The position numbers were made by a program, and so were the translations under genes. A model generated the notes under the pieces. The model searched no databases and was not told the DNA's origin. It saw only the letters and a program-made list of their open reading frames with translations. Below, one piece after another: positions 544-46,822 of a stretch of DNA of 64,000 nt. Positions within the stretch are counted from its first letter, which is position 1, and every line of letters starts with the position of its first letter. Origin of the DNA: an uncultured Bacilli bacterium (GTDB taxonomy: Bacteria; Bacillota_I; Bacilli_A; RF39; UBA660); contig CAKOHK010000006.1 in assembly GCA_934085595.1 (NCBI GenBank), positions 12,883 to 76,882 of the forward strand, written 5' to 3'.

Positions 544-1251
544 ATGGATAATAATAAGGGACAAACAATATTCCTATCTGTAATAGGTATTGCTACTTTA
601 TTAGTTGCTATTATCGGAGCTACATTTGCATACTTTAGTATTACTGTTACTGGTAATGAACAAGCATCAAGTATTTTCGTAACAACAGCTACTCTTGGAC
701 AAATTAACTTTGTTGATGGAACTCAAATTAAATGGGATAAAGTTAATTTAGAAAAAGGTGGAACTGACAAAACTGAAAGCAAAACTTTCACAGTTGAAAA
801 TACTGCTACTACTGCATTAACTAGTGATGTGACTTATGATGTTTACATGAAAGTTACTGCTAATACTATTTCAGCTGCTGCAAATGGAAGTGCTGGTGCT
901 GGTGCAAGTATCACTTATACTAGTGGAGCTCAAGCTGGAACTACTAAAAATTTAACTGCAGGTGAAGATTACTTCGTTTACAAAATCGAAGATGCTGATT
1001 CTGCTACTGCTGGAAAAGTTAATACTGGTGACAACTTAATTAGTATTGCTGAAACTGCTGTTCCTGGAGTATCAACTGATACAACTAAAGGAACTAAATT
1101 AAGTACAACTAGTGGTAAAATGGCTACTGGTGGACTTAATAGTAAACATGTGTATAAGTTTACATTAACTCTTAAGAATGCTGCTGACGCTACTCAAAAC
1201 GGAGTACAAGGTAAATCATTCGCTGGACAATTACAAGTTTATACAGATTAG
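544..1251 (+). CDS. TasA/CalY (camelysin, M73)-like secreted fibre subunit with SipW-cognate signal peptide
   Basis: Strong RBS AAAGGAGG upstream. N-terminus ...LLVAIIGATFAYFSITVTGNE matches the SipW-cognate signal motif (compare B. cereus CalY GGTFAYFSD, B. subtilis TasA GTWAAFND). It lies 2 genes upstream of a SipW-type signal peptidase. The C-terminal GKSFAGQLQVYTD block recurs in other TasA-like proteins in this window. Confidence 0.75.
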   Translation: MDNNKGQTIFLSVIGIATLLVAIIGATFAYFSITVTGNEQASSIFVTTATLGQINFVDGTQIKWDKVNLEKGGTDKTESKTFTVENTATTALTSDVTYDVYMKVTANTISAAANGSAGAGASITYTSGAQAGTTKNLTAGEDYFVYKIEDADSATAGKVNTGDNLISIAETAVPGVSTDTTKGTKLSTTSGKMATGGLNSKHVYKFTLTLKNAADATQNGVQGKSFAGQLQVYTD

Positions 1252-1405: not shown

Positions 1406-1879
1406 ATGAAGAATAGATGGGTTACTAATTTAATAATTATTTTAATGTTTATATCTGTATGTATAATGACAGCTTTATTTGCGGACAACTATCACAAAAT
1501 AAAAAACTCAAACATAAACTATGTAAATGCAAGTTTATTTATAACATATAATAACGATAAACAAATAAAGTTAGATAGAGAAAATATAGATTATGATTAT
1601 GAGTTTAATATTACTAATAATAGTGCATATACCGTAAAATATAAATTAGTGCTAGAAATAAACAGTAAAGATAATATAACTTATAATTTAGAAGGTAATC
1701 CATATAAGAAAACAAAAGAAGACATATTAATTAACAAAACTGGTAAAATTAATAATGAAAAAATAGAATTAACAGGTGCAGTTATAACAGGAGGACAAAC
1801 TCATTATTATAAACTAAATGTAAAATGTACAAAATGTAAAAGTAAAATACTTGGCGATGTAAAATTGGAGAGTGATTAA
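1406..1879 (+). CDS. Small secreted/membrane protein, candidate second SipW substrate (TapA/minor-subunit-like)
   Basis: N-terminal hydrophobic segment ending ...MTALFADNYHK resembles the A-x-F-x-D SipW-cognate motif. It is positioned between the TasA-like gene and sipW. Confidence 0.4.
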   Translation: MKNRWVTNLIIILMFISVCIMTALFADNYHKIKNSNINYVNASLFITYNNDKQIKLDRENIDYDYEFNITNNSAYTVKYKLVLEINSKDNITYNLEGNPYKKTKEDILINKTGKINNEKIELTGAVITGGQTHYYKLNVKCTKCKSKILGDVKLESD

Positions 1880-1880
1880 A

Positions 1881-2498
1881 ATGGAAGAAACAAAAAAAGA
1901 AAAAATATTAAGAAGACTTAAAATATTTATGAAAGTAATAGGATATTTTATAGTTGCAATACTAGTAGTAATAGGATTATTTTTAGTTTTCTATTTTGTT
2001 TCAGGTAAGTCAGCAGAAGCAAAAGGGCATAAACAACTGGTAGGTCTTTATACAATTATAAGCCCAAGTATGACTCCAATAATTAAACCATATGATGTGG
2101 TATTAACGTATAGAGTAGATGACCCTAATGATTTAAAAGTAGGGGATGTAATAACATTTTATTCTACAAATGATTTCTTTGGCGGAATACCAATAACACA
2201 CAGAATAAAAGATATAAGGGCTGTACCAAATGTAGGAACGGTATATATTACAAAAGGAGATGCTAACGGCAAAGAAGACAAAGAACAAGTATATTTCAAT
2301 AATATAGTTGGAAAAGTAGTAATTAAATTACCACAATTAGGTAAAGTACAATTCTTCCTAGCATCAAAAGGAGGCTGGATTATAGCAATACTAATCCCAT
2401 CACTAGCGGTTATATCTTATGATATATATAAAATATTTAAACTAATTCTTCTTAAAAATAAAATGTTAAGTTTAAGAAATAAACACGGTAATTTATAA
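1881..2498 (+). CDS. sipW: Signal peptidase I, SipW type (S26 family, ER/archaeal-type)
   Basis: N- and C-terminal TM segments. Catalytic Ser box ...LYTIISPSMTPIIKPYDVVL (SxSMxP) and downstream GDVITF...HRI motifs. The ORF track starts at GTG 1872, but ATG 1881 directly after the upstream stop is the likelier start. A terminator hairpin (actagg...cctagt + T-run) lies near 2512-2545. Confidence 0.75.
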   Translation: MEETKKEKILRRLKIFMKVIGYFIVAILVVIGLFLVFYFVSGKSAEAKGHKQLVGLYTIISPSMTPIIKPYDVVLTYRVDDPNDLKVGDVITFYSTNDFFGGIPITHRIKDIRAVPNVGTVYITKGDANGKEDKEQVYFNNIVGKVVIKLPQLGKVQFFLASKGGWIIAILIPSLAVISYDIYKIFKLILLKNKMLSLRNKHGNL

Positions 2499-2612
2499 AA
2501 TCACAAACTAGGTTACATAATACTCCTAGTTTTTTAATAAATATTAAAGTGTATTATTGCAATTGATTAAATAGTTTGATATACTTTAATATAGAAGAAT
2601 AGGGAGGATATA

Positions 2613-3740
2613 ATGAATAGTGTGTTAGAAAAGTATTTTCTCACAAAAGAAAAAGAAATATTCAAATATGCTGAAGAGATAATGCGTATGTTTTCTTATA
2701 CTCCAGTAATTAATTATGATAGTAAAACATTCAAAAAAATTATAAACATATTTTTTGAAGATAAATATAAAATATTAAATCCAACTTTCGATAGAGTATC
2801 GAAATATTATAATTTTGAAGAAGAAGTTGATCCTGAATATAAATACATACTAGATTCAGTAATTAAATGTTATGAACTAGAAGAAATAGAAATTGAAAAT
2901 AATGAAGATATATTCTTTTATTCATATATATTATACTTTGCTGTGCTAATTGATAAGTTAAAAGATACAATACTTATAATGCCAAGCAAAGCAGATTTTA
3001 TGGTAAGTATAGCGAAGAAAGTATCAAATAGATTTGAATATGAAAAAGATGAGTCATTTGATAAATATACGAATGAAATAGTACAAATGATTAAGGAAAA
3101 CATAAAATCTCATAACAAATTAAATAATGCTATTAACAAAGCATCTAACAAAGATTTCTATAATGAATATATTCTATTAAGTGATGAATATAGTTTATAT
3201 AAATTAAAATATAATACAGATATAAAAGGCAGAAATAAATACAAAGAAAAAGACTTAAATAAAATATATAAAAAGCAAAATATAGAAGACAAATTAAAAA
3301 TAATGAGTTATGGTTACTCTCAAATAGTACTATTAAGATGTTTGCTAAATGATATGAGAAAAACAGTAGCATTAGAAATAACAAAAGATTTCTACAGCAA
3401 GAAAAGTAATATAAATGCATTCTTAAGATTAGTTACAAATAAATATACTAGTGATTATTCTAAAGTGCTAATAAAAGCAGAAGAATATGAAGAATGTGAA
3501 AACTTAGAAATATTAAAAAATAACGATATTAAAATAATAATAGAAAGTGATAATTTCGAAGATATTCTTAAAATTAATTTTGATGAAAATATGGTTTTAT
3601 TAACATCTTTAAGTTTGATTAATGAACATAAAAGTGAACTAACTAATAAAAACATTAAATATATTAAAAGAGTGGATGAAACTACTTATACAAGTAAAGA
3701 ATTATTTATTACAAACAAAACGGAGGTAGATTATGAGTAA
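2613..3740 (+). CDS. Hypothetical Lys/Glu-rich soluble protein, first gene of the McrB-like operon
   Basis: Long ORF with a Shine-Dalgarno sequence (AGGGAGG). No recognisable domain. Confidence 0.45.
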   Translation: MNSVLEKYFLTKEKEIFKYAEEIMRMFSYTPVINYDSKTFKKIINIFFEDKYKILNPTFDRVSKYYNFEEEVDPEYKYILDSVIKCYELEEIEIENNEDIFFYSYILYFAVLIDKLKDTILIMPSKADFMVSIAKKVSNRFEYEKDESFDKYTNEIVQMIKENIKSHNKLNNAINKASNKDFYNEYILLSDEYSLYKLKYNTDIKGRNKYKEKDLNKIYKKQNIEDKLKIMSYGYSQIVLLRCLLNDMRKTVALEITKDFYSKKSNINAFLRLVTNKYTSDYSKVLIKAEEYEECENLEILKNNDIKIIIESDNFEDILKINFDENMVLLTSLSLINEHKSELTNKNIKYIKRVDETTYTSKELFITNKTEVDYE

Positions 3741-5238
3741 TACAGGATCATTTTTCTTAGATTTTTTAAAGCCATTTTTTAAAGGAATAATAAGTATATT
3801 TGAAGCAATATTTAAAGGATTGTTTCAAATGTTTAATGTAGTTGATTATATTAAAATTATAAGAGAACACAAAGAAGAATTAACAGGAGCTAAAATAATG
3901 CTTGTTATACTAGCAGTTCTATGTTTACTTGTTCTTTTAGGATTATTAATATATGTAATAATTAGAATTGTTAAAAGAGTAATTAGAATTAAAAGAAAAA
4001 GCCATGAACAAGATTTATTAATGGATGAAGTAGAAAAATTAAATTACGAAAACATTAAGCTAAAAAAAGAAAATGAAAAATATTTAGCAATGGCAAATGG
4101 CGAAGTAAATGAAAATGGAGAAGTAGTTCCAAAGGAAGGTGAAGAGGAAGACGAAACAGCAGAACGTTTCTATAGACTATCAAAAATTGATGAAGAATGG
4201 AAAGATTATGTTCCAGAACCAACTAACACTACAATAAAATTAAATGAATTATGTGAACAATTTAGAAATTATTCAGCAAGTAAATTAGGATTATATTATA
4301 ATATAGATTTAATTAGACTATTCATTTCAGCCTTTGCATCAAACAGATTAATAATTTTACAAGGTATATCTGGTACAGGTAAAACATCATTAGCATACGC
4401 AATGGGAAGTTTTATCAATAATGATTCAGTTATTGCACCAGTACAACCATCATGGAGAGACCGTGCTGAATTATTCGGATACTTTAACGAGTTTACTAAA
4501 AAGTTTAATGAAACAGAATTATTAGCTAAGATGTATGAAGCATCTTATAATGACAAAATATATATATCAATTCTAGATGAAATGAATATAGCACGTGTAG
4601 AATACTATTTTGCAGAAATGCTATCAATTATGGAAATGCCAAGTTATGATGAGTGGGTAATAGATTTAGTGCCAAACCCATGGCCAAGCGATCCAAAGAA
4701 ATTAGTAAATGGTAAGTTTAGAATACCAAAAAATATGTGGTATGTTGGAACAATAAATAACGATGATTCAACATTCATGGTAACAGATAAAGTTTATGAC
4801 CGTGCTTTACCAATCAGTATTGATGAAAAAGCGGAAGAGTTTAAAGCACCTGATACAGATAAAGTAAATATTGGGTGTGAATACTTACTAAAATTATTTG
4901 ATGAAGCACAAAAAGCAAATCCAATGAGCGAAGATGTTTTATCAAAACTAAGCACAATGGACGATTATGTAATTAAACATTTTAGAATATCATTTGGTAA
5001 TCGTATTTTACAACAAATGAGAAACTTCGTACCAGTATTCGTATCATGTGGAGGACAAGAAATAGTGGCAGTAGATTATCTTATCTGTCATAAAATATTA
5101 AGAAAGTTTGAACAATTAAATATGTCATACATAAGAAATGAAGTAGATGGATTTATAGAGTTTTTAAATCAAACATTTGGACAAGATGTTATGAAAGAAT
5201 GTACAAGATATCTATTAGAACTTAAAAAGAATGCGTAA
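3733..5238 (+). CDS. Membrane-anchored McrB-family AAA+ (AAA_5) GTPase/ATPase
   Basis: One TM helix (LVILAVLCLLVLLGLLIYVII) then a coiled coil. The C-terminal region aligns block-by-block to E. coli McrB: IILQGISGTGKTSLA ~ FILQGPPGCGKTFVA; VQPSW..ELFGYF ~ VQFHQSYSYEDFIQGY; ISILDEMNIARVEYYFAEMLSIME ~ IFIIDEINRANLSKVFGEVMMLME; IPKNMWYVGTINNDDSTFMVTDKVYDRALPISID ~ [34 protein letters not shown]. Confidence 0.7.
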   Translation: MSNTGSFFLDFLKPFFKGIISIFEAIFKGLFQMFNVVDYIKIIREHKEELTGAKIMLVILAVLCLLVLLGLLIYVIIRIVKRVIRIKRKSHEQDLLMDEVEKLNYENIKLKKENEKYLAMANGEVNENGEVVPKEGEEEDETAERFYRLSKIDEEWKDYVPEPTNTTIKLNELCEQFRNYSASKLGLYYNIDLIRLFISAFASNRLIILQGISGTGKTSLAYAMGSFINNDSVIAPVQPSWRDRAELFGYFNEFTKKFNETELLAKMYEASYNDKIYISILDEMNIARVEYYFAEMLSIMEMPSYDEWVIDLVPNPWPSDPKKLVNGKFRIPKNMWYVGTINNDDSTFMVTDKVYDRALPISIDEKAEEFKAPDTDKVNIGCEYLLKLFDEAQKANPMSEDVLSKLSTMDDYVIKHFRISFGNRILQQMRNFVPVFVSCGGQEIVAVDYLICHKILRKFEQLNMSYIRNEVDGFIEFLNQTFGQDVMKECTRYLLELKKNA

Positions 5239-5254
5239 TAATTAGGAGGAAAAA

Positions 5255-6349
5255 ATGATCGACAAAATCACAGAAATATTTGGAAATGTAAGTAATGAAG
5301 ATTATAAATCGTTTAACGATAAAATAAACTCAATAATAAACTTTACAAGAACAACTGAAAATGTTTCTCGTGATTTTAGTTGGGTACCAATTGTAGAAGA
5401 AACAATTCCATATTTAGATACTATTATTAGAAATCCAAAAAAGTTTTTACAACAAGAAGAAGATATAGTAATAGTGGAAAAATCTAAAAAAATATCTACA
5501 GAAACAGTAAGACACTTAGCTCAGCATACAAACTTTATACAAGATGTAGATGATGAAGGAATGGTAAAACCATCAAAAGTACTTAATGTAGAAAAAGAAG
5601 ATTCATGGGATTTGTATGAAAATAGGTTTATATATACTCTAGTAAAAGAACTAGCTTCATTTGTAGATAAATATGCAGGAAAAGAGTTAGAAAATCCAAA
5701 AATAGAAACTAATAGTAGTTTAGTTTATACTGCAACTACTAATTATGAAAACGAAGATATATCTGTAAGTATTAATTTAGAAAGCAGTAAAAAACAAGAA
5801 CCTAAAGATTTTGATATGGATGCAATGAAAAAAAGAATTACTTACATAAGAGATGTAGTAGGTGATTTTGAAAATAGTGCATTCATAAAAAGTTTATCAC
5901 AAGCAGTACCAGTAAAATCTCCAATTAAAAAGACAAACATAATACTAAAAGATCCAAACTTCCAAAAAGCACTAGCGTTATGGGAGTTTATAAAGAATAC
6001 AGAAATTGGCGAACCTCAAGATATTAAAAAAGATGTTAAAGATTTAACAACAAAAGAATTAAAATCAAAAATAGATATGTGCTCATTCTTAGAATACATA
6101 TCAACAACAGATAAAACAAATGATGAAGACATAACAGCAAAATCACTAGCTTCAAAGATATTATCTTTAATAGATGAATATGTAGATATAACAGAGCTAA
6201 CAGAAAAGAAAATACAAGATTTTGTACATGAAGAAATATCTAGTGAAATAGAAAAAAGAAAAGAAAAAGAAAAAAATATAAAAGAAATGTATGATAAATA
6301 CATTAAAGAATGCAATGCTTATATAAATGATTTATGTGAAATAATGTAA
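5255..6349 (+). CDS. Hypothetical protein in the McrC position downstream of McrB-like gene; no PD-(D/E)xK motif seen
   Basis: Starts 17 nt after the McrB-like gene with an RBS (AGGAGG). Acidic/Lys-rich C-terminus; no nuclease motif identifiable by eye. Confidence 0.45.
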   Translation: MIDKITEIFGNVSNEDYKSFNDKINSIINFTRTTENVSRDFSWVPIVEETIPYLDTIIRNPKKFLQQEEDIVIVEKSKKISTETVRHLAQHTNFIQDVDDEGMVKPSKVLNVEKEDSWDLYENRFIYTLVKELASFVDKYAGKELENPKIETNSSLVYTATTNYENEDISVSINLESSKKQEPKDFDMDAMKKRITYIRDVVGDFENSAFIKSLSQAVPVKSPIKKTNIILKDPNFQKALALWEFIKNTEIGEPQDIKKDVKDLTTKELKSKIDMCSFLEYISTTDKTNDEDITAKSLASKILSLIDEYVDITELTEKKIQDFVHEEISSEIEKRKEKEKNIKEMYDKYIKECNAYINDLCEIM

Positions 6350-6368
6350 GTATTAGAAAGGAAAAACT

Positions 6369-7730
6369 ATGCAAGACAATATAAATAAAGATACTGAAGA
6401 AAAAGTAACAAATGAACCAAAAGAAAATATAGAAGAAGTAAATGAAAGTTCTGTTGTTGATGATTTCTTCATGGAAGATATTTATAAGAACAATTATATA
6501 GATTTATATAAACTAGAAGGTTTAGATATTAAAGACCAATCTAAAATATTTACATTATTATTAACAAACATATATAAAGACTATAGTGACATTGATTATG
6601 GAAATATAAGAAAATATTCATTAAAATGTTTAAAATTAAGCTGTGACCCTGAAGAAAACGAGCTTAAATTACCATATAAATTATTAGTAACTAAAGATAC
6701 TAATAGAATGTATTTTAAGTTTGAAAAAGATAAAACTATGCTACTATTCTTTATAGTATTAGGACTATTTATAGCAATAGCTATCGCAGCAACTTATTTT
6801 GGATTAAGATACTTATCATTAGAGCATTTAAATATAGATATAAATGGTGATGGAATCGCAGATATTAACATTGATGTATCAGGAAACGAAAAAGCAGAGA
6901 TTAACATTTCAGAAGATAGAAAAACACCTATAAGAAATATAGATTATAAAGGCAATAGAAAACCAACATTTAATGTCGATGAAACAGGAAGTGGAAAAGC
7001 AACTAAAAACTTAATGAATCAAGATATAGATGGTGATGGAAAATGTGATTTGAACTGTGATACAACTGGTGATGGTTGGCCAGATTTAAACATTGATATA
7101 GACGGCGATGGAAAATGCGATTTATACTGTGATACTGATGGGGATGGGAAACCAAACTTAAACTTTGATACAACTGGTGATGGAACATGTGATTTACACT
7201 GTGATACAGATGGAGATAATATTTGTGATGTTAACTGTGTAAGTAATGTAAAAGCAGTAGAAGACATAACAGGTAACTCAAGTGTAGTAGGAAACAGTGC
7301 TACAGATGTAACAACAGCCCAGTTCGTAGTAGACTTCATAGATTCAAAAGAAATACGAGCCGAGAACTTATTCCCTGATGATCAAGATGATAAAGATGTA
7401 ACTAAATATGTGACAAAGACATTTACAATAGATAACAAATCTCCTATAAATGTTGTATATAGAGTAGAATTAGTTGTAAACAAAAATACATTTACAAGTG
7501 AAAACTTTGTGTATAATATGAAGTCAACTAATAATGGATTAACAAAAGATTTTGAGATGGTACCTAAGAAAACTGCGGATATAGCAGATAGAGTATTAAT
7601 AACACCAAATACAAAACAAACATATACATTAACATTTAAACTTAAAGGAATTGGAAAGAAACAGAACTTTGATCAAGGAAAAGTATTCCGAGGTTATTTA
7701 CAGGTTTACGTTTATGAACAAGGACACTAA
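6369..7730 (+). CDS. Membrane protein with thrombospondin-type-3-like Ca-binding Cys repeats and a TasA-like C-terminal beta domain
   Basis: Internal TM segment (LLFFIVLGLFIAIAIAATYFGL). Tandem DxDGDGxCDLxCDT repeats (DIDGDGKCDLNCDTTGDGWPDLNIDIDGDGKCDLYCDTDGDGKPNLNFDTTGDGTCDLHCDTDGDNICDVNC). The C-terminus ...QGKVFRGYLQVYVYEQGH parallels GKSFAGQLQVYTD of the 544-1251 protein and NYNQGK(R/S)xYGVLGV of the 52416/54301 proteins. A terminator (aggaca...tgtcct + T-run) overlaps the stop near 7725-7752. Confidence 0.55.
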   Translation: MQDNINKDTEEKVTNEPKENIEEVNESSVVDDFFMEDIYKNNYIDLYKLEGLDIKDQSKIFTLLLTNIYKDYSDIDYGNIRKYSLKCLKLSCDPEENELKLPYKLLVTKDTNRMYFKFEKDKTMLLFFIVLGLFIAIAIAATYFGLRYLSLEHLNIDINGDGIADINIDVSGNEKAEINISEDRKTPIRNIDYKGNRKPTFNVDETGSGKATKNLMNQDIDGDGKCDLNCDTTGDGWPDLNIDIDGDGKCDLYCDTDGDGKPNLNFDTTGDGTCDLHCDTDGDNICDVNCVSNVKAVEDITGNSSVVGNSATDVTTAQFVVDFIDSKEIRAENLFPDDQDDKDVTKYVTKTFTIDNKSPINVVYRVELVVNKNTFTSENFVYNMKSTNNGLTKDFEMVPKKTADIADRVLITPNTKQTYTLTFKLKGIGKKQNFDQGKVFRGYLQVYVYEQGH

Positions 7731-7859
7731 AATGTCCTTTTTCTTTTATAAAAAAAGTGATACAATTAAATAGCAACCAAATGTATACAAACAGCAATTG
7801 AAAATGTATTGTAAAGAATTATGATAAAATGATAATATTGTTATGAGAGGAAAAAAAGA

Positions 7860-9068
7860 ATGTTAGAAGTAATAAACAAAATATTAATAATATTTACTAA
7901 TTTATACGGATTATACTTTATTGTGACAGCACTTTCTATATTTAAAAAAGAAAAAAAGAAAGAAAACAAAAATAAATACAAAAATTATTTTTCAATATTA
8001 ATTCCAGCTAGAAATGAAGAGAAAGTTATAGCTAACTTAATAAATAGTTTAAATAATATGAATTATGATAAAGATAAATATGAAATAAATGTAATACTTA
8101 ATAATTCAAAAGATAATACCTATAATGTTTCTACAAACGCTGGAGCTAATGTATTAAGGTGTAAAAGTAAAATAACTACTAAAGGGGAGGCTTTAAAAGA
8201 AGCTTTTAGAAAAATTAACGATGATAAAATAGATGCATATATTATATTTGATGCTGACAATGTAGTAGACAAAGACTTTTTAAAATATATGAATGAATCT
8301 ATTAATAATGGTTATAAGGTTGCCCAAGGATTTAGAGATACAAAAAATGATAAATGTAATTGGATTTCATCTTCATATACAATATATTATTTTATACAAA
8401 ATCTATTCTATAATAAATCAAGAAAGAAATTAAATAGATCTGCATCTATTAATGGTACAGGTTTCATGATAAAAAAAGAAGTAATTGATACAATAGGATT
8501 TAATGTAAAAACATTATCAGAAGATGTAGAGTTTACAGGCATATGTGCATTAAATGATATTAAAATTGACTTTGTAGAAAAAGCAGTTACATATGATGAA
8601 CAAGCATCAGATTTTAAAATATCATGGATACAAAGAAAAAGATGGTCAAAAGGTTGTTTACAATGCTATAGAAATTATTTTAAATCACTAATAAAAAAAT
8701 CAAATAAACCTTCTTGTTTAGACATGCTATTGATATACTTTGCACCAATATTACAAATATTATCTTTATTCATTGTTATAATAGATTTAGTATCAATGTA
8801 TTATAATGGAATAATACAAAATATAAGTATGAATACAATAATTTTCAGTATATCATTTGCAGTTATAATATATTTATTACAAGTTATAGTTTCATTATAT
8901 TCTATTTATTATTTTAAAAGAGATATTAAGAAATATATAAGTGGAGTATTCCTTTTTCCAGTATTTCTAATAACTTGGCTTCCAATAAATATAGTAGTAT
9001 TATTTAGAAAAAATATTAAATGGGAGCATATAGAACATAGTAAAAGTTTAACAATAGAAGACATGTAA
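7860..9068 (+). CDS. Family 2 glycosyltransferase, polytopic membrane type
   Basis: LIPARNEEKVI and FDADNVVD (DxD) motifs in the N-terminal half; multiple C-terminal TM helices. Confidence 0.65.
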   Translation: MLEVINKILIIFTNLYGLYFIVTALSIFKKEKKKENKNKYKNYFSILIPARNEEKVIANLINSLNNMNYDKDKYEINVILNNSKDNTYNVSTNAGANVLRCKSKITTKGEALKEAFRKINDDKIDAYIIFDADNVVDKDFLKYMNESINNGYKVAQGFRDTKNDKCNWISSSYTIYYFIQNLFYNKSRKKLNRSASINGTGFMIKKEVIDTIGFNVKTLSEDVEFTGICALNDIKIDFVEKAVTYDEQASDFKISWIQRKRWSKGCLQCYRNYFKSLIKKSNKPSCLDMLLIYFAPILQILSLFIVIIDLVSMYYNGIIQNISMNTIIFSISFAVIIYLLQVIVSLYSIYYFKRDIKKYISGVFLFPVFLITWLPINIVVLFRKNIKWEHIEHSKSLTIEDM

Positions 9069-9077
9069 AAACAGGCA

Positions 9078-11054
<1,977 letters not shown>

Positions 11055-21459: not shown

Positions 21460-22842
21460 ATGTATAGAGTAGAAGATATAAGCGATATAACAAAAAAGTT
21501 TGGAGATTATATCGCATCATATATTAGTGAACTAGAAAGTAAATTAGAAAAAGTATCAAATACTAAGTTTTATGAGGATTTAAAAAATATATTAAAAACA
21601 TCAACTGACTTAGAAGATTTTTTACATATAGAAAAAGATATATTAAAAATAAACCCTTCTTTAAAAGGAATATTTGATATATTAAACTTTTACTATGAAA
21701 ACAACGCATCAAACGCACCACAAGCTAGAAAAGCAATAGAGAATCTTAAAAATAGTGGTTTACTATCAAAAATAGATGTACTTTCACAAAATACAGAAGA
21801 AAAGAGTAAATTAGAAGAAGAAATAAAAAAATGTAAAATGATTCTATCAAATAATATAACTGATTGGGATTATTATTTTGATTTAATTAAAAAAAGTGAT
21901 TTAACAGATGAAGAACAAATAGAGCTTTTATCTAAAATTGCTTATGAAAGCACTCTTGAAAAAGAAAAAGTAACTACAAAAGAAGATAAAAAAGAAGAAA
22001 AACCCGCAAAAGAATATGTAAGTACTGAAAAAATGGGAGTAGAACTTGAAAGATTAAGAGAATTAAATAGAAAAATAAATAATTATATAGCAAAATACAG
22101 TAGTTTAGTTAACAATAAAACTCCTAATCAAATAACAATGTATAAAGATGTTATTAACGCCCTAGGAACTAATTTATATGATGAAGTAGGAAACTACAAA
22201 GTAAAAGAAGAAGCAATAATTCTTTTAACATTTAGAGCTCAAGCCTTACAAGCTGATATAAGTTCTGTAGTATCTTCTCTTAAAAGTACATACGAAAAAG
22301 AAGATTTTGACATGTTAGAATTATATTTAGACGAACTATCTAAAATAGAAGATTTATTAAGTGGTTTAGACTCAGAAATAACAGAAGAAGAAAAAGAAGC
22401 AAATAGTAATGGTACAAAGAATGTAATATACTTAACAGATGAAAACAACAACCCATACTTTAGTTACTCAAACTTACAATTTGAACAAAAATTATCATAT
22501 AAAACTCTTCTTGAAAAAATAAGTAAAGGTTTATTTGACTACAAAAAACATAAAAATGGAGCAACAGTACTAGGTACAAAATCAAATAGAGTATATGTAA
22601 ATATCTCAGGAAGATATGGTTGTTCTTATGTAATATTAAATGATGAATACCTTCTAGTATTATCTCTAGCACCATATCAAAATGTTTATTCTGAAAGTTT
22701 AAAAATTGAATCACAAGAAGAAAAGAAAATTAAAGAATTAAAACAAAATCCAGAACTAGCTTATGACATTTTAATATCACAAAGTGATTTAAGAAATAAA
22801 ATCGAAGAAGAAATAAGCGAAGACAAAGGAGTAGTGCTATGA
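21460..22842 (+). CDS. Hypothetical helical protein; C-terminal ~90 aa with possible RelE/ParE-like fold
   Basis: The C-terminus ...HKNGATVLGTKSNRVYVNISGRYGCSYVILNDEYLLVLSLAPYQNVY resembles the RelE/ParE pattern (R..Y..RIG-DYRIIY...D..L.IGHR...Y). Its stop overlaps (ATGA) the start of an XRE HTH gene. Confidence 0.4.
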   Translation: MYRVEDISDITKKFGDYIASYISELESKLEKVSNTKFYEDLKNILKTSTDLEDFLHIEKDILKINPSLKGIFDILNFYYENNASNAPQARKAIENLKNSGLLSKIDVLSQNTEEKSKLEEEIKKCKMILSNNITDWDYYFDLIKKSDLTDEEQIELLSKIAYESTLEKEKVTTKEDKKEEKPAKEYVSTEKMGVELERLRELNRKINNYIAKYSSLVNNKTPNQITMYKDVINALGTNLYDEVGNYKVKEEAIILLTFRAQALQADISSVVSSLKSTYEKEDFDMLELYLDELSKIEDLLSGLDSEITEEEKEANSNGTKNVIYLTDENNNPYFSYSNLQFEQKLSYKTLLEKISKGLFDYKKHKNGATVLGTKSNRVYVNISGRYGCSYVILNDEYLLVLSLAPYQNVYSESLKIESQEEKKIKELKQNPELAYDILISQSDLRNKIEEEISEDKGVVL

Positions 22843-23033
22843 AAGATATAGATATAGTATTTAATAAATTAAAAAAAGAATGTATAGACATAATACTAAA
22901 GCAAAAAGTAAGCGCAGAAGAATTATCTTTCAGATTAGGATGTTCTCCTAGTATGTTAATAAGTTTATTAAAAGGCAAAAATGAAGATATATCAATATAT
23001 TTAAAACTATATGATGTATTGGTGAATTGGTAG
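22839..23033 (+). CDS. Small XRE-family helix-turn-helix protein
   Basis: ELSFRLGCSPSMLISLLKGKNED matches the HTH_XRE pattern. Translationally coupled to the upstream gene. Confidence 0.5.
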   Translation: MKDIDIVFNKLKKECIDIILKQKVSAEELSFRLGCSPSMLISLLKGKNEDISIYLKLYDVLVNW

Positions 23034-23040
23034 GTGAATT

Positions 23041-24888
23041 ATGACATTAACAGAAATAATAGAAGATAAGAAAAATGATTTATCAAAAGAAGTAAGTACA
23101 CTTGAAAGAGCTACTAAAGAATCACCAGAAGAAATAAGAAAATTAAAAGAAGAAATATATAAAGTAACAGAAATGTTAAATGTCCTACAAGATGATATAT
23201 ATAGAATAGAAGAACTAAATGAAGAAGATATATTAAATTACATAGATAACTTTGATGAAGAAATAAAAGAAAAAATAAGATTAATGAAAATAACAGCAAG
23301 AGCCGTAAAGAAAGGATTAGATGTTGATTTAACAACAGAAGAAAGAGCATTACTTCAAGATATAATATCACATCTTCAAACTAAAAAAGATGATTTAAAA
23401 GACTTCTTATCAAGTCTTACAAGTAAAGTAAGAGCCTATAATGACCTATACGAAAGAGCATATCTAAATTATCAAGAACTAGAAACTATATTAGAAAAAT
23501 TAAAAGATCCGAGTAATGGAGAAAAATTAACTGAAGCAGAGTTTAATATTTTATATTCAAACATTATTGAAGATACTTTTATAAGTAATGAAGTTAAAAA
23601 AGAACTATTAATTCAAATAAAACTATACAATTTAAACGGAAAAAGAAAAACAGAAGTATCAGTAAAAAAAGCAAGTTTTGAAGAAATACAAGACTTATTA
23701 AGAGAATATAATGTACAAGATAAAACTATTAAAAGAGCTTCTTCATTTAAATCAGAATTAACTAGTAATATAAACATTAATAATGCAAGAGAAATCTTAG
23801 ATTTTATGTCAAGTACAAAAATAGATGGAAATATAAAACTATTATCTAAGTTTACAAGTGAAGCACTTTTAGCCATACTATCATATGGAACTTTGAGTAG
23901 TGTTAAAAATAGATTTGAAGTTCTAGAAAGAGAATCTCTACTTAATGATTTCTTCTTTGATACTCCAAGTGTGTGGATAGACAATTTAAAAATCAAAAAA
24001 ACAAGACAAAGAAATAATAAAGATAAAGAAACATTATCTTCAGTTAGAACTTTAAATTACTTTGCACACGTTTCTTCTTATGAAGATATAATGGCAAACT
24101 ATGAATATCTAAAAGGAGAAGGAGTAGACATTAGTTTCAAAGACGCTATAAGTAAAAGAATACTAACTATGAATAGTGAAACAATAAAAAGAAATACAAA
24201 AATAATTAATTTCTATGGACTATCTAAAGTACCAACGTTATATTTAATATCTTACCTTGATGAAAAATGTGATAAGTTCTCTGAATTAGAATTATTAAGC
24301 GGACCAGAAGCTAAGCATAAAATATATTCAAATGCAGTAGCCACTTTCCCAACAATACTAGCAAAAACACCAGAAGAAATATTTATGCTCCTTTATAAAG
24401 AAAAAAGAGCGTTAAGTAAAAATGATTTCTATAGAAGAATATTTTCTGAATCAAGACAAGGTAATTTTAAGACATATTTAACAAGAGATAAATTAGGTTA
24501 TAAATTAAAAACAAGTCAAGACATAGAAACATTCTTTGCTTCAGAGTTTATAGACCAAAGTCAAGAGATACCAGATTATATAGCATATGCAAAAGCATTA
24601 AGTGAAAACAAGAGCTTTGAATATGACAAGAATATATTATTACTACCAGAAATAATAGAACTAGAAGGTTATAAAGATGAAAATAATTCACTTATATATA
24701 GATTTGGAAGTGAAGCAATTTCAGTACATAAAGTATTATCAAACTATAGTGCTCTTCAAAAATCAGGCATACCACTTGATAAAAAAGCATTAATGTTCTG
24801 TATTTGTGAAGGAAGTTATTTAAACGAAGAAGCATTTAACATGATATCAGATATTATAGGTTTTAAAGAAGAAAGGAATCTAAACTAA
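23041..24888 (+). CDS. Hypothetical 615-aa protein, N-terminal coiled-coil
   Basis: Long ORF, operon-internal, no recognisable domain. Confidence 0.45.
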   Translation: MTLTEIIEDKKNDLSKEVSTLERATKESPEEIRKLKEEIYKVTEMLNVLQDDIYRIEELNEEDILNYIDNFDEEIKEKIRLMKITARAVKKGLDVDLTTEERALLQDIISHLQTKKDDLKDFLSSLTSKVRAYNDLYERAYLNYQELETILEKLKDPSNGEKLTEAEFNILYSNIIEDTFISNEVKKELLIQIKLYNLNGKRKTEVSVKKASFEEIQDLLREYNVQDKTIKRASSFKSELTSNININNAREILDFMSSTKIDGNIKLLSKFTSEALLAILSYGTLSSVKNRFEVLERESLLNDFFFDTPSVWIDNLKIKKTRQRNNKDKETLSSVRTLNYFAHVSSYEDIMANYEYLKGEGVDISFKDAISKRILTMNSETIKRNTKIINFYGLSKVPTLYLISYLDEKCDKFSELELLSGPEAKHKIYSNAVATFPTILAKTPEEIFMLLYKEKRALSKNDFYRRIFSESRQGNFKTYLTRDKLGYKLKTSQDIETFFASEFIDQSQEIPDYIAYAKALSENKSFEYDKNILLLPEIIELEGYKDENNSLIYRFGSEAISVHKVLSNYSALQKSGIPLDKKALMFCICEGSYLNEEAFNMISDIIGFKEERNLN

Positions 24889-25130
24889 TGGACTTTTTAA
24901 AAGAATATGGACTAACAAATGAAGACGTAGAAAACTTAGAAATTAACTTAGAAAATGACGACATTAACTTTATTTGTATGCATGAAGAAGAAATGAAAGA
25001 AATAATAGAATATTTTATATCTAAAGGACTTAATAAAGACGATATAATAGAACTATTAATATATAAAACAGAATTATTTTATGAAACAAAAGATAAAGTA
25101 AAAGAAATATACGAAACTAATGATAATTAA
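24888..25130 (+). CDS. Small acidic hypothetical protein
   Basis: Translationally coupled (ATGA overlap) to the upstream gene, followed by a strong terminator. Confidence 0.4.
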   Translation: MDFLKEYGLTNEDVENLEINLENDDINFICMHEEEMKEIIEYFISKGLNKDDIIELLIYKTELFYETKDKVKEIYETNDN

Positions 25131-25142
25131 AATAAGTATTAA

Positions 25143-25170
25143 AAGGTGATTTTCATCACCTTTTTATTAT
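25143..25170 (+). terminator. Rho-independent terminator (AAAGGTGAT-tttc-ATCACCTTT + T-run)
   Basis: Perfect 9-bp stem read directly. The ORF-track start of the 25146 ORF lies inside this hairpin and is therefore not the real start. Confidence 0.7.
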
Positions 25171-25187
25171 GGAAAAGTACAAATAAA

Positions 25188-25216
25188 TTGACTTTTAGCC
25201 ACTTTTGCAGTATAAT
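25188..25216 (+). promoter_or_regulatory. Consensus sigma-A promoter TTGACT-17-TATAAT
   Basis: TTGACT 25188-25193, 17-nt spacer, TATAAT 25211-25216; followed by RBS AAAAGGGG and ATG 25248. Confidence 0.65.
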
Positions 25217-25247
25217 AACAAAGCAAATTGAAAAAGGGGTTAGGGTT

Positions 25248-26498: not shown

Positions 26499-26499
26499 A

Positions 26500-41002: not shown

Positions 41003-41087
41003 TAGATTTACTTTATAGACAATATTACAATTTTCTTTTTAATATTAATAGTTAAATAAAGTTAATATCTATAATAAAGGAGTGTAT

Positions 41088-46676: not shown

Positions 46677-46822
46677 ATAGTAAAACTTAATAACTGTTTA
46701 TAAAGTTAAAGCCTTAAAACATTAAAATAAGTATGAAAATGTACAAATTTTATTTTCAAATAAAACATGGACTATAATTTATAAAAATGATATACTTATT
46801 TTATAAAAGTAAAGGAGTGTAT

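What the first reader, a model, noticed from the sequence alone, without database searches (positions are those of the whole stretch)
2613..7730. Operon encoding a membrane-anchored McrB-family GTPase next to a TasA-like/TSP3-repeat membrane protein, directly downstream of sipW
The 501-aa protein has an unmistakable McrB-type AAA+ (AAA_5) domain. Its N-terminal DNA-binding domain is replaced by a TM helix plus coiled coil. The following 364-aa protein sits where McrC would, but no PD-(D/E)xK nuclease motif is visible. The operon ends with a membrane protein carrying an extracellular TasA-like beta domain. McrB-like GTPases are known from restriction (McrBC) systems. A membrane-tethered version embedded in a biofilm-fibre locus suggests either a non-canonical envelope-associated defence module or an assembly/export motor co-opted for matrix fibres.
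Basis: partly seen in the sequence, partly recalled or inferred. Interest (0 to 1): 0.7.

Follow-up and report, generated by a model that had tools for sequence, protein, structure and literature searches.

The report
Membrane-tethered McrBC-like module beside pilus genes
A four-gene unit encodes a restriction-enzyme-type (McrB-like) motor protein anchored in the membrane, its McrC-like partner without the DNA-cutting domain, and two accessory proteins that tie it to SipW-processed surface-fibre proteins. This class was named "CoCoPALM" in 2024, but its function has never been tested.

Summary
The four ORFs are at the stated coordinates.

**Main identifications**
- The 501-aa protein is a McrB-clade AAA+ NTPase of the NxD branch. 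It carries an N-terminal TM helix and a short coiled coil.
- The 364-aa partner has the McrC N-terminal domain (DUF2357) and no detectable nuclease.

**New points**
- The cassette looks like its own transcription unit, bracketed by terminator-like hairpins.
- It is conserved in all 22 related loci from uncultured gut Bacilli.
- The 453-aa protein's extracellular β-domain is homologous to the 235-aa secreted protein encoded next to sipW.
- The 375-aa protein has an EAL-like fold. Its relatives occur fused to SipW in five loci.
- In relatives without the 453-aa gene, SipW is always adjacent (15 of 15 de-replicated lineages).

**Interpretation**
This matches "CoCoPALM" (Bell et al. 2024, eLife), a class named but never studied. 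The most likely role is a nuclease-less McrBC-derived motor or switch coupled to SipW-dependent pilus or fibre assembly. Defence and cell-division roles are not excluded.

- "Unmistakable AAA_5": below Pfam's threshold for this protein.
- "TasA-like" and "TSP3": no family-model hits, weak fold support only.
- "Clostridia".

Verdict: a new member of a known but uncharacterised kind, interest about 0.55.

The parts
544..1251 (+). 235-aa signal-anchored secreted protein (pilin-like). After its hydrophobic segment it carries the motif GATFAYFS. Residues 54-233 are homologous to the C-terminal beta-domain of the 453-aa protein.
   Evidence: ORF. An HMM built only from 21 orthologues of the 453-aa C-domain (the window's own sequence excluded) hits it at E=7.8e-7 in 1327 ORFs. 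BLASTP finds 49% identity over the last 35 residues. No Pfam or NCBIfam hit. Reading the motif as TasA/CalY-type is from my own knowledge.
1406..1879 (+). 157-aa small signal-anchored protein. It may be a second, minor fibre subunit. It overlaps the sipW start by 8 nt.
   Evidence: ORF. Weak match to the iterated beta-domain HMM (E=2e-5). BLASTP against the 453-aa protein gives E=0.08. The assignment is weak.
1872..2498 (+). SipW-type (archaeal/ER-type) signal peptidase I with TM helices at both ends, an SPSM serine motif and an ITHR histidine motif.
   Evidence: TIGR02228 at 86.9 bits (cut-off 51.85) and SipW model NF046067 at 79.9 bits. Hydropathy.
2505..2538 (+). Terminator-like hairpin (8-bp stem) plus U6 tract directly after sipW.
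   Evidence: Fold energy -7.8 kcal/mol, z=-3.3 against shuffles. Sequence. The consensus scan missed it because its loop is 12 nt.
2557..2612 (+). Promoter-like site (TTGCAA-17-TATACT with TG) and strong RBS (GGGAGG, 2602-2607) ahead of the 375-aa gene.
   Evidence: Promoter-like sites are no more frequent here than in shuffles, so this is only suggestive.
2613..3740 (+). 375-aa cytoplasmic protein: an N-terminal helical domain (about 1-176) and a C-terminal alpha/beta domain with a degenerate EAL-like fold. It belongs to the family found directly upstream of the ATPase in most related loci and fused to SipW in five.
3733..5238 (+). 501-aa membrane-tethered McrB-clade AAA+ NTPase of the NxD branch. 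It has an N-terminal Phe-rich amphipathic segment, one TM helix, a short coiled coil, the AAA+ core (about 195-360) and a conserved C-terminal helical domain.
3898..3966 (+). TM helix of the ATPase (residues about 56-78). The basic stretch RIVKRVIRIKRK follows it, which places the AAA+ domain in the cytoplasm by the positive-inside rule.
   Evidence: Hydropathy. The topology is inferred.
4363..4386 (+). Walker A motif (G211-x-x-G214-x-G216-K217-T).
   Evidence: Invariant in 63 diverse homologues.
4756..4764 (+). N342-N-D344, the NxD version of the McrB signature motif. The following D345 is not invariant.
   Evidence: invariant T340, N342, D344, S346, T347. One homologue, P0143, reads NSDQ. 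Aligned to NTAD of E. coli McrB.
5255..6349 (+). 364-aa McrC-like partner. It has the DUF2357 (McrC N-terminal) domain with conserved NPRRF and YENRF motifs. Its C-terminal ~110 residues are poorly conserved and helical. No PD-(D/E)xK domain was detected.
6369..7730 (+). 453-aa bitopic membrane protein. In order: a cytoplasmic alpha/beta domain (31-118), a TM helix (about 124-147, ending in AATYFG), about eleven 12-residue Asp-rich (DxDxDG-like, Cys-containing) repeats (154-293), a disordered linker, and a beta-sandwich (317-448).
   Evidence: AF2 model with pLDDT 85 from 58 sequences. Repeats and TM. Fold searches. Domain homology.
7317..7712 (+). C-terminal beta-sandwich of the 453-aa protein. 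It is the same domain as in the secreted 235-aa protein, and its best solved-structure match is the TasA fibre subunit (weak).
7716..7750 (+). Terminator-like hairpin plus U-tract overlapping the stop codon of the 453-aa gene. It marks the end of the unit.
   Evidence: stem 7720-7739. Fold energy -10.3 kcal/mol, z=-4.2.

Best explanation
[quoted passage not shown] It is a McrBC-derived two-protein NTPase module that has lost both the DNA-binding domain and the nuclease, and now works at the cytoplasmic membrane with SipW-processed, TasA-fold-like surface filament proteins.

Proposed working (steps 1 and 2 are inferred from homology, steps 3 to 5 from context):
1. The 501-aa protein forms a McrB-like hexameric ring. 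The ring is held under the membrane by six TM and coiled-coil stalks.
2. The 364-aa McrC-N-like subunit inserts into the ring and triggers GTP hydrolysis, as McrC does for McrB.
3. The 375-aa EAL-like protein links the ring to the SipW peptidase. In some relatives it is covalently fused to SipW's cytoplasmic tail. It may act as a nucleotide (c-di-GMP-type) sensor.
4. The 453-aa protein spans the membrane. Its cytoplasmic domain faces the motor. Outside the cell, a Ca2+-binding Asp-rich stalk carries a pilin-like beta-domain, which can serve as the membrane-anchored base or primer for the filament. The filament would be built from the SipW-cleaved 235-aa and possibly 157-aa subunits.
5. NTP hydrolysis is used to drive or gate the extraction, priming or anchoring of subunits. 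By analogy this would be an assembly motor or switch for a TasA-type pilus.
For: Identity of the module:
- McrB is the top and only significant AAA+ PDB hit.
- Invariant Walker A, Walker B, N-x-D and Arg residues.
- AAA_5 hits in 41 of 63 relatives.
- The partner is DUF2357 above Pfam threshold, as are 12 of 13 orthologues.
- The pair is adjacent in 42 of 42 well-flanked loci.
- TM helix and coiled coil.
- This matches the published CoCoPALM definition (PMC11090510).

Link to SipW and filament proteins:
- SipW lies within 9 kb in 27 of 27 loci, or 15 of 15 lineages de-replicated at 75% ATPase identity, that lack the 453-aa gene. It is often directly adjacent and in 2-5 paralogues, together with several signal-anchored pilin-like genes.
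- SipW calls were validated with TIGR02228.
- The 375-aa family is fused to SipW in L080, L083, L086, L092 and L095.
- The 453-aa C-domain is homologous to the window's secreted 235-aa protein.
- The best solved fold for that domain is the TasA fibre.
- In three loci the cassette follows CpaF-like pilus ATPase genes.

Housekeeping-like behaviour rather than defence-like:
- The ATPase is 58-62% identical across loci in which the neighbouring cassette genes are only 20-44% identical.
- The cassette sits at conserved positions among DnaE/ClpB/rpsB/tsf or PBP2B/MraY/FtsW, with no mobile or defence genes nearby.
Against: - No experiment exists for any member of this class.
- Known TasA/BsaA fibres need only SipW and a chaperone, with no NTPase (background from PMC9674648, PMC10151520 and PMC11580942, listed).
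- In the window's own subtype, SipW is not nearby in 12 of 15 well-flanked loci (5 of 6 lineages). The cassette also looks transcriptionally separate from sipW here.
- The EAL-like call rests on an AF2 model from only 7 sequences, and the catalytic or ligand-binding residues are not conserved.
- Loci were retrieved by similarity and many are closely related, so the counts are not independent events.
Confidence: 0.5

Rival explanations
1. It is an envelope-associated anti-phage or abortive-infection module descended from type IV restriction. The membrane-tethered McrB-like NTPase senses infection, for example phage adsorption or DNA entry sensed through the extracellular 453-aa protein. It then triggers membrane damage or growth arrest without a nuclease.
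For: - McrBC ancestry.
- The ATPase region hits the PADLOC candidate model PDC-M26A at 2.9e-40.
- The related NxD-branch CoCoNuT systems are predicted to be defence systems (PMC11090510).
Against: - PDC-x models are unpublished and unvalidated candidates (PMC11811056).
- Only the ATPase region matches. The 364-, 375- and 453-aa proteins hit no PADLOC model.
- No nuclease or other recognisable effector was found.
- The cassette lies at conserved chromosomal positions among housekeeping genes. The ATPase is the most conserved gene, and no integrases or other defence genes are nearby.
- There is a constant association with signal peptidases and secreted pilin-like proteins.
Confidence: 0.15
2. 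It is a cell-division or cell-wall morphogenesis factor of this Bacilli lineage. The FtsB/DivIC-like TM and coiled-coil stalk would place an NTPase at the divisome. The 453-aa protein would contact the wall. The SipW link would be ancestral but no longer functional in this subtype.
For: - Bell et al. describe the N-terminus as FtsB-like. There is a weak Pfam DivIC hit at residues 68-116 (E=0.008).
- In 9-10 of 22 loci of this subtype the cassette is next to PBP2B-MraY-FtsW. In L015 it lies between PBP2B and MraY.
- Conservation is housekeeping-like.
Against: - The DivIC hit is below threshold and seen in only 1 of 63 relatives. A TM helix plus coiled coil is a generic architecture.
- Another 8 loci sit between ClpB and rpsB-tsf, so dcw adjacency is not constant and may reflect shared synteny of related genomes.
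- This reading does not explain the pilin-like extracellular domain, the SipW fusions or the universal SipW and pilin context in sister subtypes.
Confidence: 0.15
3. The adjacency to sipW and the fibre genes in this window is a chance juxtaposition. The four-gene cassette would be an autonomous membrane NTPase system of unrelated function, for example protein quality control or transport.
For: - A terminator-like hairpin lies between sipW and the cassette, which has its own RBS.
- Most loci of this subtype lack a nearby sipW.
Against: - The 453-aa protein, part of the cassette itself, carries the same domain as the secreted protein beside sipW.
- The cassette's 375-aa family is fused to SipW elsewhere.
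- SipW is adjacent in all sister subtypes.
Confidence: 0.07

Closest known systems
[quoted passage not shown]
   Same: - An NxD-branch McrB-like GTPase fused to an FtsB-like TM and coiled-coil N-terminus.
- A McrC homologue that retains DUF2357.
- Genomic association with SipW-family signal peptidases.
- All three were seen here.
   Different: - The published description is two sentences long, and analysis was deferred to a 'forthcoming publication' that I could not find in the library.
- In this window's subtype the McrC homologue is short (364 aa) and lacks the long coiled coil seen in the 772-848-aa versions.
- The cassette carries a dedicated 453-aa membrane protein with a pilin-like ectodomain and an EAL-like 375-aa protein.
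- The cassette is usually separated from sipW.
- I cannot tell whether Bell et al. noticed these parts.
E. coli McrBC type IV restriction enzyme (PDB 6hz4, 6ut6, 7vsr)
   Same: - AAA+ GTPase core with Walker A, Walker B and the Asn-Asp signature.
- A partner gene directly downstream with the McrC N-terminal domain, which in McrBC plugs the hexamer and stimulates GTP hydrolysis.
   Different: - No N-terminal DNA-binding domain; a TM helix and coiled coil take its place.
- The signature is NxD rather than NxxD.
- The partner lacks the PD-(D/E)xK nuclease.
- Only about 25 bits of sequence similarity over about 165 residues.
- The genomic context is secreted proteins and a signal peptidase, not DNA-modification genes.
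CoCoNuT systems (CnuB/CnuC; same paper)
   Same: NxD-branch McrB-like GTPase with N-terminal coiled coil. The McrC homologue often lacks an active nuclease.
   Different: CoCoNuTs are soluble and come with HEPN or other nucleases, CnuH helicases and RNA-binding domains. None of these is present here. This system has a TM anchor and a SipW/pilin context.
SipW-TasA-TapA (B. subtilis) and SipW-BsaA/B/C (C. perfringens) fibre operons; archaeal TasA-like bundling pili and cannulae
   Same: - A SipW-type peptidase encoded next to one or more small signal-anchored beta-sandwich proteins.
- The N-terminal motif GATFAYFS resembles the TasA/CalY type.
- The best solved-structure match of the shared beta-domain is the TasA fibre.
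- BsaA polymers are membrane-anchored (PMC11580942), as proposed here for the 453-aa protein.
   Different: - No Pfam or NCBIfam TasA/camelysin hit for any of the proteins.
- Fold scores are weak.
- Known TasA systems have no NTPase, no McrC-like protein and no EAL-like partner.
Degenerate EAL-domain receptors that control pili or adhesins (FimX, LapD, YdiV)
   Different: - Only 8-12% identity.
- The domain is truncated, at about 175 against about 240 residues.
- No conserved EAL, DDFG or other ligand-binding motif.
- The Pfam EAL model is not hit by the window protein.
- c-di-GMP binding is pure conjecture.

Membership tests
McrB-like GTPase (AAA+, AAA_5 clade) | AAA+ core with Walker A (GxxGxGKT) and Walker B (hhhhDE) | tested here: met
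   GISGTGKT (K217) and ILDE (D282, E283) are invariant in 63 homologues.
McrB-like GTPase (AAA+, AAA_5 clade) | Asn/Asp signature motif (NxxD, or NxD in one major branch) after the sensor-1 strand | tested here: met
   N342 and D344 are invariant and D345 is variable; a homologue reads NSDQ. This gives NxD, as in the branch defined in PMC11090510.
McrB-like GTPase (AAA+, AAA_5 clade) | Closer to McrB than to other AAA_5 proteins (MoxR, dynein, midasin and others) | tested here: met
   McrB is the only AAA+ protein with E<1e-3 in PDB searches with the sequence and with the family profile. The NCBIfam McrB model is the top hit at 8.5e-5, far below its equivalog cut-off. Pfam AAA_5 scores 18.5 against 22 bits for this protein, and hits 41 of 63 relatives.
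McrB-like GTPase (AAA+, AAA_5 clade) | N-terminal DNA-binding (target-recognition) domain | tested here: not met
   Residues 1-190 hold an amphipathic segment, one TM helix, a coiled coil and an acidic linker. This is not a canonical restriction McrB.
McrB-like GTPase (AAA+, AAA_5 clade) | GTP-specific hydrolysis stimulated by the partner | not testable with these tools
   Needs biochemistry.
McrC | N-terminal DUF2357 domain, encoded directly downstream of mcrB | tested here: met
   PF09823 at 34.9 bits against 23.3. 12 of 13 orthologues hit it. The gene is adjacent in 42 of 42 loci.
McrC | C-terminal PD-(D/E)xK nuclease domain | tested here: not met
   No nuclease Pfam hit in 13 orthologues. 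The C-terminal ~110 residues are poorly conserved and helical, with no conserved D...(D/E)xK. The fold was not modelled, so an unrecognisable degenerate fold cannot be fully excluded.
CoCoPALM (Bell et al. 2024) | NxD McrB-like GTPase fused to an FtsB-like TM and coiled-coil domain | tested here: met
   TM helix at 56-78 with a coiled-coil-like segment at 88-120. Weak DivIC (0.008) and bZIP (0.034) hits cover this region. FtsB homology itself is only weakly supported here.
CoCoPALM (Bell et al. 2024) | Association with signal-peptidase-family (SipW) genes | tested here: met
   SipW lies 114 nt upstream of the cassette. It is present in 15 of 15 lineages of sister subtypes but only 1 of 6 lineages of this subtype, not counting the window.
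CoCoPALM (Bell et al. 2024) | [quoted passage not shown] | tested here: inconclusive
   The McrB homologue has one. The 364-aa McrC homologue has only a short helical tail. The 772-848-aa relatives hit Rod_CreS and Tropomyosin.
TasA/camelysin family (Peptidase_M73) | Match to the family's sequence models | tested here: not met
   No Pfam or NCBIfam hit for the 235-, 157- or 453-aa proteins, or for pilin-like proteins of related loci.
TasA/camelysin family (Peptidase_M73) | TasA-type jelly-roll fold | tested here: inconclusive
   [not shown]
TasA/camelysin family (Peptidase_M73) | SipW-dependent cleavage and donor-strand polymerisation | not testable with these tools
   Only the motif GATFAYFS in the 235-aa protein and AATYFG in the 453-aa protein suggest it, read from the sequence.
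Thrombospondin type 3 repeat | Match to Pfam TSP_3 | tested here: not met
   No hit at E<=0.1. What is present is about eleven 12-residue DxDxDG-like repeats, so a Ca2+-binding role is inferred.
EAL domain (c-di-GMP phosphodiesterase or receptor) | EAL-type TIM-barrel fold | tested here: inconclusive
   [not shown]
EAL domain (c-di-GMP phosphodiesterase or receptor) | Sequence-model match and conserved catalytic or binding residues | tested here: not met
   The window protein has no Pfam hit. One of 42 relatives hits EAL at 7.7e-4. There are no invariant columns across 42 relatives.
PADLOC candidate system PDC-M26 | All components of the candidate system present | tested here: not met
   Only the ATPase region matches PDC-M26A (2.9e-40). 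The other three proteins hit nothing. PDC-x systems are unvalidated candidates.

The most novel reading that the evidence does not exclude
The cassette is the core of a previously unrecognised class of NTP-driven pilus machine in Gram-positive bacteria. A McrBC-derived GTPase ring, membrane-tethered and activated by a nuclease-less McrC, would power or gate the assembly of SipW-processed, donor-strand-type (TasA-fold) filaments. Assembly would start from a membrane-anchored, pilin-like primer (the 453-aa protein). A degenerate EAL-like adaptor that docks on SipW, and may sense c-di-GMP, would control it. This would be a third solution to pilus assembly, beside type IV pilus ATPases and sortases, and an exaptation of a restriction enzyme into a cell-surface motor.
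Probability: 0.2. Interest if true: 0.85.

Novelty: new member of a known kind. Interest (0 to 1): 0.55.

Why it matters
McrBC is a textbook DNA restriction motor. Here the same two-protein engine has lost both its DNA-recognition domain and its nuclease. It sits in the membrane and is genomically tied to signal peptidases and secreted fibre subunits.

If the link is functional, a defence motor has been exapted into a cell-surface assembly or control machine. TasA-type fibres have so far been thought to self-assemble without energy input, so an NTP-dependent route would be new.

The family is very abundant in gut and rumen metagenomes: 728 clusters at 50% identity with E<1e-30. In the window's lineage of uncultured, small-genome Bacilli it behaves like a conserved housekeeping gene set. 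It may therefore shape how these common gut bacteria attach or aggregate.

This analysis also gives concrete handles for experiments:
- the SipW fusions of the 375-aa family;
- the pilin-like ectodomain of the 453-aa protein;
- the invariant Walker A, Walker B, NxD and Arg residues.

Tried and rejected
- Sequence searches of the 364-, 375- and 453-aa proteins and their family profiles against PDB sequences gave nothing useful. The 42-sequence profile of the 375-aa family hit only an AI-designed TIM barrel through a repeated beta-alpha unit.
- Pfam, NCBIfam and PADLOC gave no hit for the 375- and 453-aa proteins.
- The supplementary files of the CoCoNuT paper held as text do not mention CoCoPALM, FtsB, TasA or signal peptidase.
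- No follow-up CoCoPALM paper was found. 'PDC-M26' appears in no paper.
- The one paper containing both SipW and McrB mentions mcrB only in an E. coli strain genotype.
- My first neighbourhood scan found only close relatives (genome contigs, single query). It suggested that sipW linkage was rare, at 5 of 18 loci. The wider metagenome scan reversed that impression for the sister subtypes.
- My first single-linkage clustering merged the '-1' 320-340-aa proteins with SipW. This turned out to be caused by real SipW fusion proteins and was resolved with domain HMMs.
- I considered that the window was Clostridium (perfringens-like bsa locus). I rejected this because all relatives come from uncultured Bacilli/'Tenericutes' MAGs and the gene order differs.
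- I considered a phage or plasmid origin. I rejected it because UvrB, a UvrD/PcrA-family helicase, PFOR, a sulfatase-family protein and a sortase lie in the window.
- There are no tRNA or Rfam hits in the window.

Full report
**1. The observation**

The four ORFs are at the coordinates given: 2613-3740 (375 aa), 3733-5238 (501 aa), 5255-6349 (364 aa) and 6369-7730 (453 aa). All are on the + strand, with an 8-nt overlap followed by gaps of 16 and 19 nt.

Upstream lie a 235-aa ORF (544-1251), a 157-aa ORF (1406-1879) and a 208-aa ORF (1872-2498). The 208-aa ORF is a SipW-type signal peptidase (TIGR02228, 86.9 bits against a cut-off of 51.85; SipW model NF046067, 79.9 bits).

A hairpin plus U6 tract follows sipW (2505-2538; -7.8 kcal/mol, z=-3.3). 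A second hairpin plus U-tract overlaps the stop codon of the 453-aa gene (7716-7750; -10.3 kcal/mol, z=-4.2). With the strong RBS GGGAGG at 2602-2607, the four genes look like a transcription unit of their own. They do not look like a continuation of the sipW operon, although read-through cannot be excluded.

The window itself is chromosomal. UvrB, a UvrD/PcrA-family helicase, PFOR, a sulfatase-family protein and a sortase-domain protein lie further along.

**2. The ATPase (501 aa)**

Hydropathy shows one TM helix (about residues 56-78), followed by RIVKRVIRIKRK and a heptad-like segment. Weak DivIC and bZIP hits cover this region. By the positive-inside rule the AAA+ part is cytoplasmic; this is inferred.

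Placement in the McrB clade:
- Pfam AAA_5 is below its gathering score for this protein (18.5 against 22 bits), so the domain is not 'unmistakable' at face value.
- The only AAA+ protein in the PDB that matches significantly is the E. coli McrB GTPase domain (E=8e-5 as a single sequence; E=4e-5 with a 63-sequence family profile over about 165 residues).
- The NCBIfam McrB model is the top hit (8.5e-5).
- 41 of 63 relatives hit AAA_5 (best 4.6e-8).

Invariant residues in 63 homologues with 27-61% identity to the window protein are G211/G214/G216/K217 (Walker A), D282 (E283 nearly invariant), N285/R288/E290, T340-N342-x-D344-x-S346-T347, R357 and R424.

The signature is therefore N-x-D followed by a variable D/Q (a homologue reads NSDQ). 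Bell et al. use this 'NxD' variant to define one major branch of McrB GTPases (PMC11090510).

The family is large. All 8000 scored candidates passed E<=1e-3 in the 90%-clustered database. In the 50%-clustered library there are 728 clusters with E<=1e-30.

The ATPase with its C-terminal domain (residues about 140-500) is the conserved part. The N-termini vary:
- TM helix plus coiled coil, as here;
- coiled coils of about 400 aa;
- multi-TM regions;
- signal peptide, ectodomain and TM helix.

**3. The partner (364 aa)**

It hits Pfam DUF2357, the N-terminal domain of McrC, above threshold (34.9 against 23.3 bits, residues 54-142). So do 12 of 13 orthologues, and none hits a nuclease family.

Conservation is concentrated in the first 250 residues, with the motifs IIRNPRRF, YENRF and SPIRKTN..LK..NF...L.LW. 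The last ~110 residues are variable and helical, without a conserved D...(D/E)xK.

Relatives of 772-848 aa carry a long coiled coil here, with Rod_CreS and Tropomyosin hits.

So the protein is McrC-like in its activating half only. I did not model its fold, so a completely degenerate nuclease fold is not formally excluded.

**4. The 453-aa protein**

An AF2 model from 58 homologues is confident (pLDDT 85). Its parts, in order:
- a cytoplasmic alpha/beta domain (31-118);
- one long TM helix;
- about eleven 12-residue Asp-rich repeats (xDLNxDxDGDGK, several with Cys pairs);
- a disordered linker;
- a beta-sandwich (317-448).

Pfam TSP_3 is not hit, so 'TSP3' is only a motif-level resemblance (DxDxDG, presumably Ca2+-binding).

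For the beta-sandwich:
- The best Foldseek hit among solved structures is the TasA fibre subunit (8aur_A, E=2.9e-4). Its TM-score is low, and generic beta-sandwiches follow closely.
- No TasA/camelysin sequence model is hit by this protein, by the 235-aa protein or by pilin-like proteins of related loci.

'TasA-like' is therefore consistent with the data but not demonstrated.

What is demonstrated is an internal link. An HMM built only from the C-terminal domains of 21 orthologues, excluding the window's own sequence, finds the window's 235-aa secreted protein at E=7.8e-7 among 1327 ORFs. It also finds four similar signal-anchored proteins in related loci at 4e-9 to 3e-8. BLASTP shows 49% identity over the last 35 residues.

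The 235-aa protein has the motif GATFAYFS after its hydrophobic segment. From my own knowledge this is the TasA/CalY-type SipW-substrate motif. The 453-aa protein's TM helix ends in AATYFG, a similar motif (read from the sequence).

So the cassette's last gene carries the same extracellular module as the presumed SipW substrate next door.

**5. The 375-aa protein**

It has no sequence-family hit and evolves fast, at 18-25% identity among orthologues.

An AF2 model from only 7 sequences is nevertheless reasonably confident (pLDDT 77.7, pTM 0.70). It shows a helical N-domain and a beta/alpha C-domain.

One of 42 family members hits Pfam EAL at 7.7e-4. No catalytic or binding motif is conserved. 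I call it EAL-like and degenerate, with moderate confidence. Nucleotide sensing is conjecture.

Context evidence is more informative:
- The family occupies the position directly upstream of the ATPase in most related loci.
- In five loci (L080, L083, L086, L092, L095) it is the C-terminal part of a 631-696-aa protein.
- The N-terminal part of that protein is a complete SipW (TIGR02228, 68-72 bits in the three fusions scanned, L080, L086 and L092). It has both TM helices, the GSM serine motif and the THR histidine motif.
- An acidic linker follows. The C-terminal part matches the stand-alone family at E=1e-38 to 1e-45.

This fusion predicts that the 375-aa protein works with SipW on the cytoplasmic side.

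**6. Neighbourhoods**

I collected 98 related loci from three sources:
- L001-L004 by exact-protein look-ups;
- L005-L018 from one genome per species;
- L019-L098 from metagenomes.

I called ORFs and classified them with my own clusters and HMMs.

The ATPase+DUF2357 pair is present in 42 of 42 loci with at least 5 kb on both sides.

Loci fall into subtypes. In those without a 453-aa gene:
- SipW is always within 9 kb (27 of 27 loci, or 15 of 15 lineages after de-replication at 75% ATPase identity).
- SipW is often directly adjacent, in two to five paralogues.
- It is accompanied by several signal-anchored 'pilin-like' genes and sometimes by giant Gly-rich surface proteins.

In the window's subtype (22 loci including the window), the order 375-501-364-453 is invariant, but the flanks are housekeeping genes:
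- RNase Y-DnaE-ClpB | cassette | membrane protein-rpsB-tsf in 8 loci;
- PBP2B-MraY-FtsW next to the cassette in 9-10 loci. In L015 the cassette lies between PBP2B and MraY.
- A CpaF-like Tad pilus ATPase operon directly upstream in three loci (CpaF, E=5e-18).

SipW is nearby only in L001-L003 and in the window.

Within this subtype the ATPase is 58-62% identical to the window's. The other three proteins are 34-41%, 33-44% and 21-30% identical.

There are no integrases, transposases or known defence genes nearby.

The loci were found by similarity and many are close relatives. The counts are therefore descriptive, not independent events.

**7. What it is**

The architecture was described in two sentences by Bell et al. 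(eLife 2024, PMC11090510). [quoted passage not shown] They named these CoCoPALM and deferred analysis to a later paper. I found no later paper.

The window's locus meets these criteria, so I file it as a member. The coiled coil on the McrC homologue, which the authors say is 'usual', is not evident in this short version.

It is not a canonical McrBC, because both the DNA-binding domain and the nuclease were tested and not found.

It is not demonstrably a TasA-family or TSP3-family protein, nor an EAL enzyme.

**8. How it most likely works (confidence 0.5)**

By homology with McrBC, the 501-aa protein should form a hexameric ring whose NTPase is switched on by the DUF2357 protein inserted into the ring.

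The ring is tethered under the membrane. It has no DNA-binding domain or nuclease.

Its constant companions are a SipW peptidase, a SipW-linked EAL-like protein and secreted or membrane-anchored proteins that share one beta-sandwich module.

The simplest reading is a motor or switch that couples cytoplasmic NTP hydrolysis to the processing, priming or anchoring of a SipW-dependent surface filament. The 453-aa protein would be the transmembrane link and filament base. The 375-aa protein would be the adaptor or sensor on SipW.

Ring formation and partner activation are inferred from homology. Everything else is inferred from context.

Rivals:
- A nuclease-less membrane defence module (0.15). It rests on McrBC ancestry and a hit to the unvalidated PADLOC candidate PDC-M26A. 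The housekeeping-like conservation and the lack of any effector argue against it.
- A division or cell-wall role (0.15). The FtsB-like stalk and the dcw adjacency support it. It does not explain the pilin-like domain or the SipW fusions.
- Chance juxtaposition (0.07). It is contradicted by the domain homology and the fusions.

**9. Novelty and interest**

The class is known by name only and its function is untested. This locus is a new member.

The subtype-specific parts are observations I could not find in the literature available to me:
- the pilin-like 453-aa membrane protein;
- the EAL-like 375-aa protein and its fusion to SipW;
- the housekeeping-like placement, often beside the dcw genes.

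A specialist who knows the 2024 census would not be surprised by the McrB-SipW pairing. The system is nonetheless abundant in gut bacteria and mechanistically open, and these handles make it testable. Interest is 0.55.

Noticed in passing
window 21460-29620 (+): Five co-directional ORFs (460, 615, 450, 728 and 320 aa), mostly without family hits. The 728-aa protein (26500-28686) has an N-terminal helical, coiled-coil-like region of about 400 aa. It also has a C-terminal AAA+ domain (GPSGMGKS, LTLDEFDNG, 'AGNTDGEG') with weak Pfam AAA and AAA_5 hits (0.002-0.005). The next gene is DUF7192 (1.5e-13). There are no PADLOC hits. This is a second coiled-coil AAA_5-like ATPase cluster of unknown function in the same window.
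   Followed up: partly
window 41082-46630 and 46787-52266 (+): A tandemly duplicated three-gene module: 222/232 aa, 1467/1434 aa with no Pfam hit, and a 159-aa gene in each copy (only the first, 46151-46630, was scanned: DUF5411, 5.6e-49). It lies just downstream of a 539-aa sortase-domain protein (38748-40367).
   Followed up: partly
window 10173-11036 (-): A 287-aa collagen-like protein made of GPT/GAT triplets. Local GC reaches 58% in a genome of about 25% GC. It is flanked by two GT2 glycosyltransferases (7860-9068; 9078-10166, the latter with TPR repeats), which suggests a glycosylated surface or exosporium-type fibre.
   Followed up: no
L007, L008, L013 (about 4 kb upstream of the ATPase): In three related loci the cassette directly follows a Tad-type pilus gene set: a CpaB-like gene, a CpaF-like ATPase (PDB CpaF, E=5e-18) and two TadB/C-like membrane proteins. 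Only the CpaF-like gene was tested; the other three were named by eye from their sequences.
   Followed up: partly
L015 8931-13938; also L008, L013, L018, L019, L020: The cassette lies beside, and in L015 inside, the PBP2B-MraY-FtsW part of the division and cell-wall cluster (the PBP is backed by precomputed Pfam domains; MraY and FtsW were named by eye from their sequences). This holds for about 9-10 of 22 loci of this subtype.
   Followed up: partly
[not shown]
   Followed up: no
L001 13953-19498: Downstream of the cassette in L001-L003 lie two 197-aa signal-anchored proteins. They are followed by a 385-aa protein with a multi-TM N-terminal domain fused to SipW (TIGR02228, 78.9 bits), a DUF5305 protein, and a 629-aa Gly-rich protein. 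This is another SipW-linked surface-protein set.
   Followed up: partly
L044, L049, L052, L061, L076, L080, L088 (upstream of the SipW genes): Sister-subtype loci encode giant proteins of 900-1700 aa with GGGNxG-type Gly-rich repeats, next to multiple SipW paralogues. They may be filament tips or adhesins.
   Followed up: no
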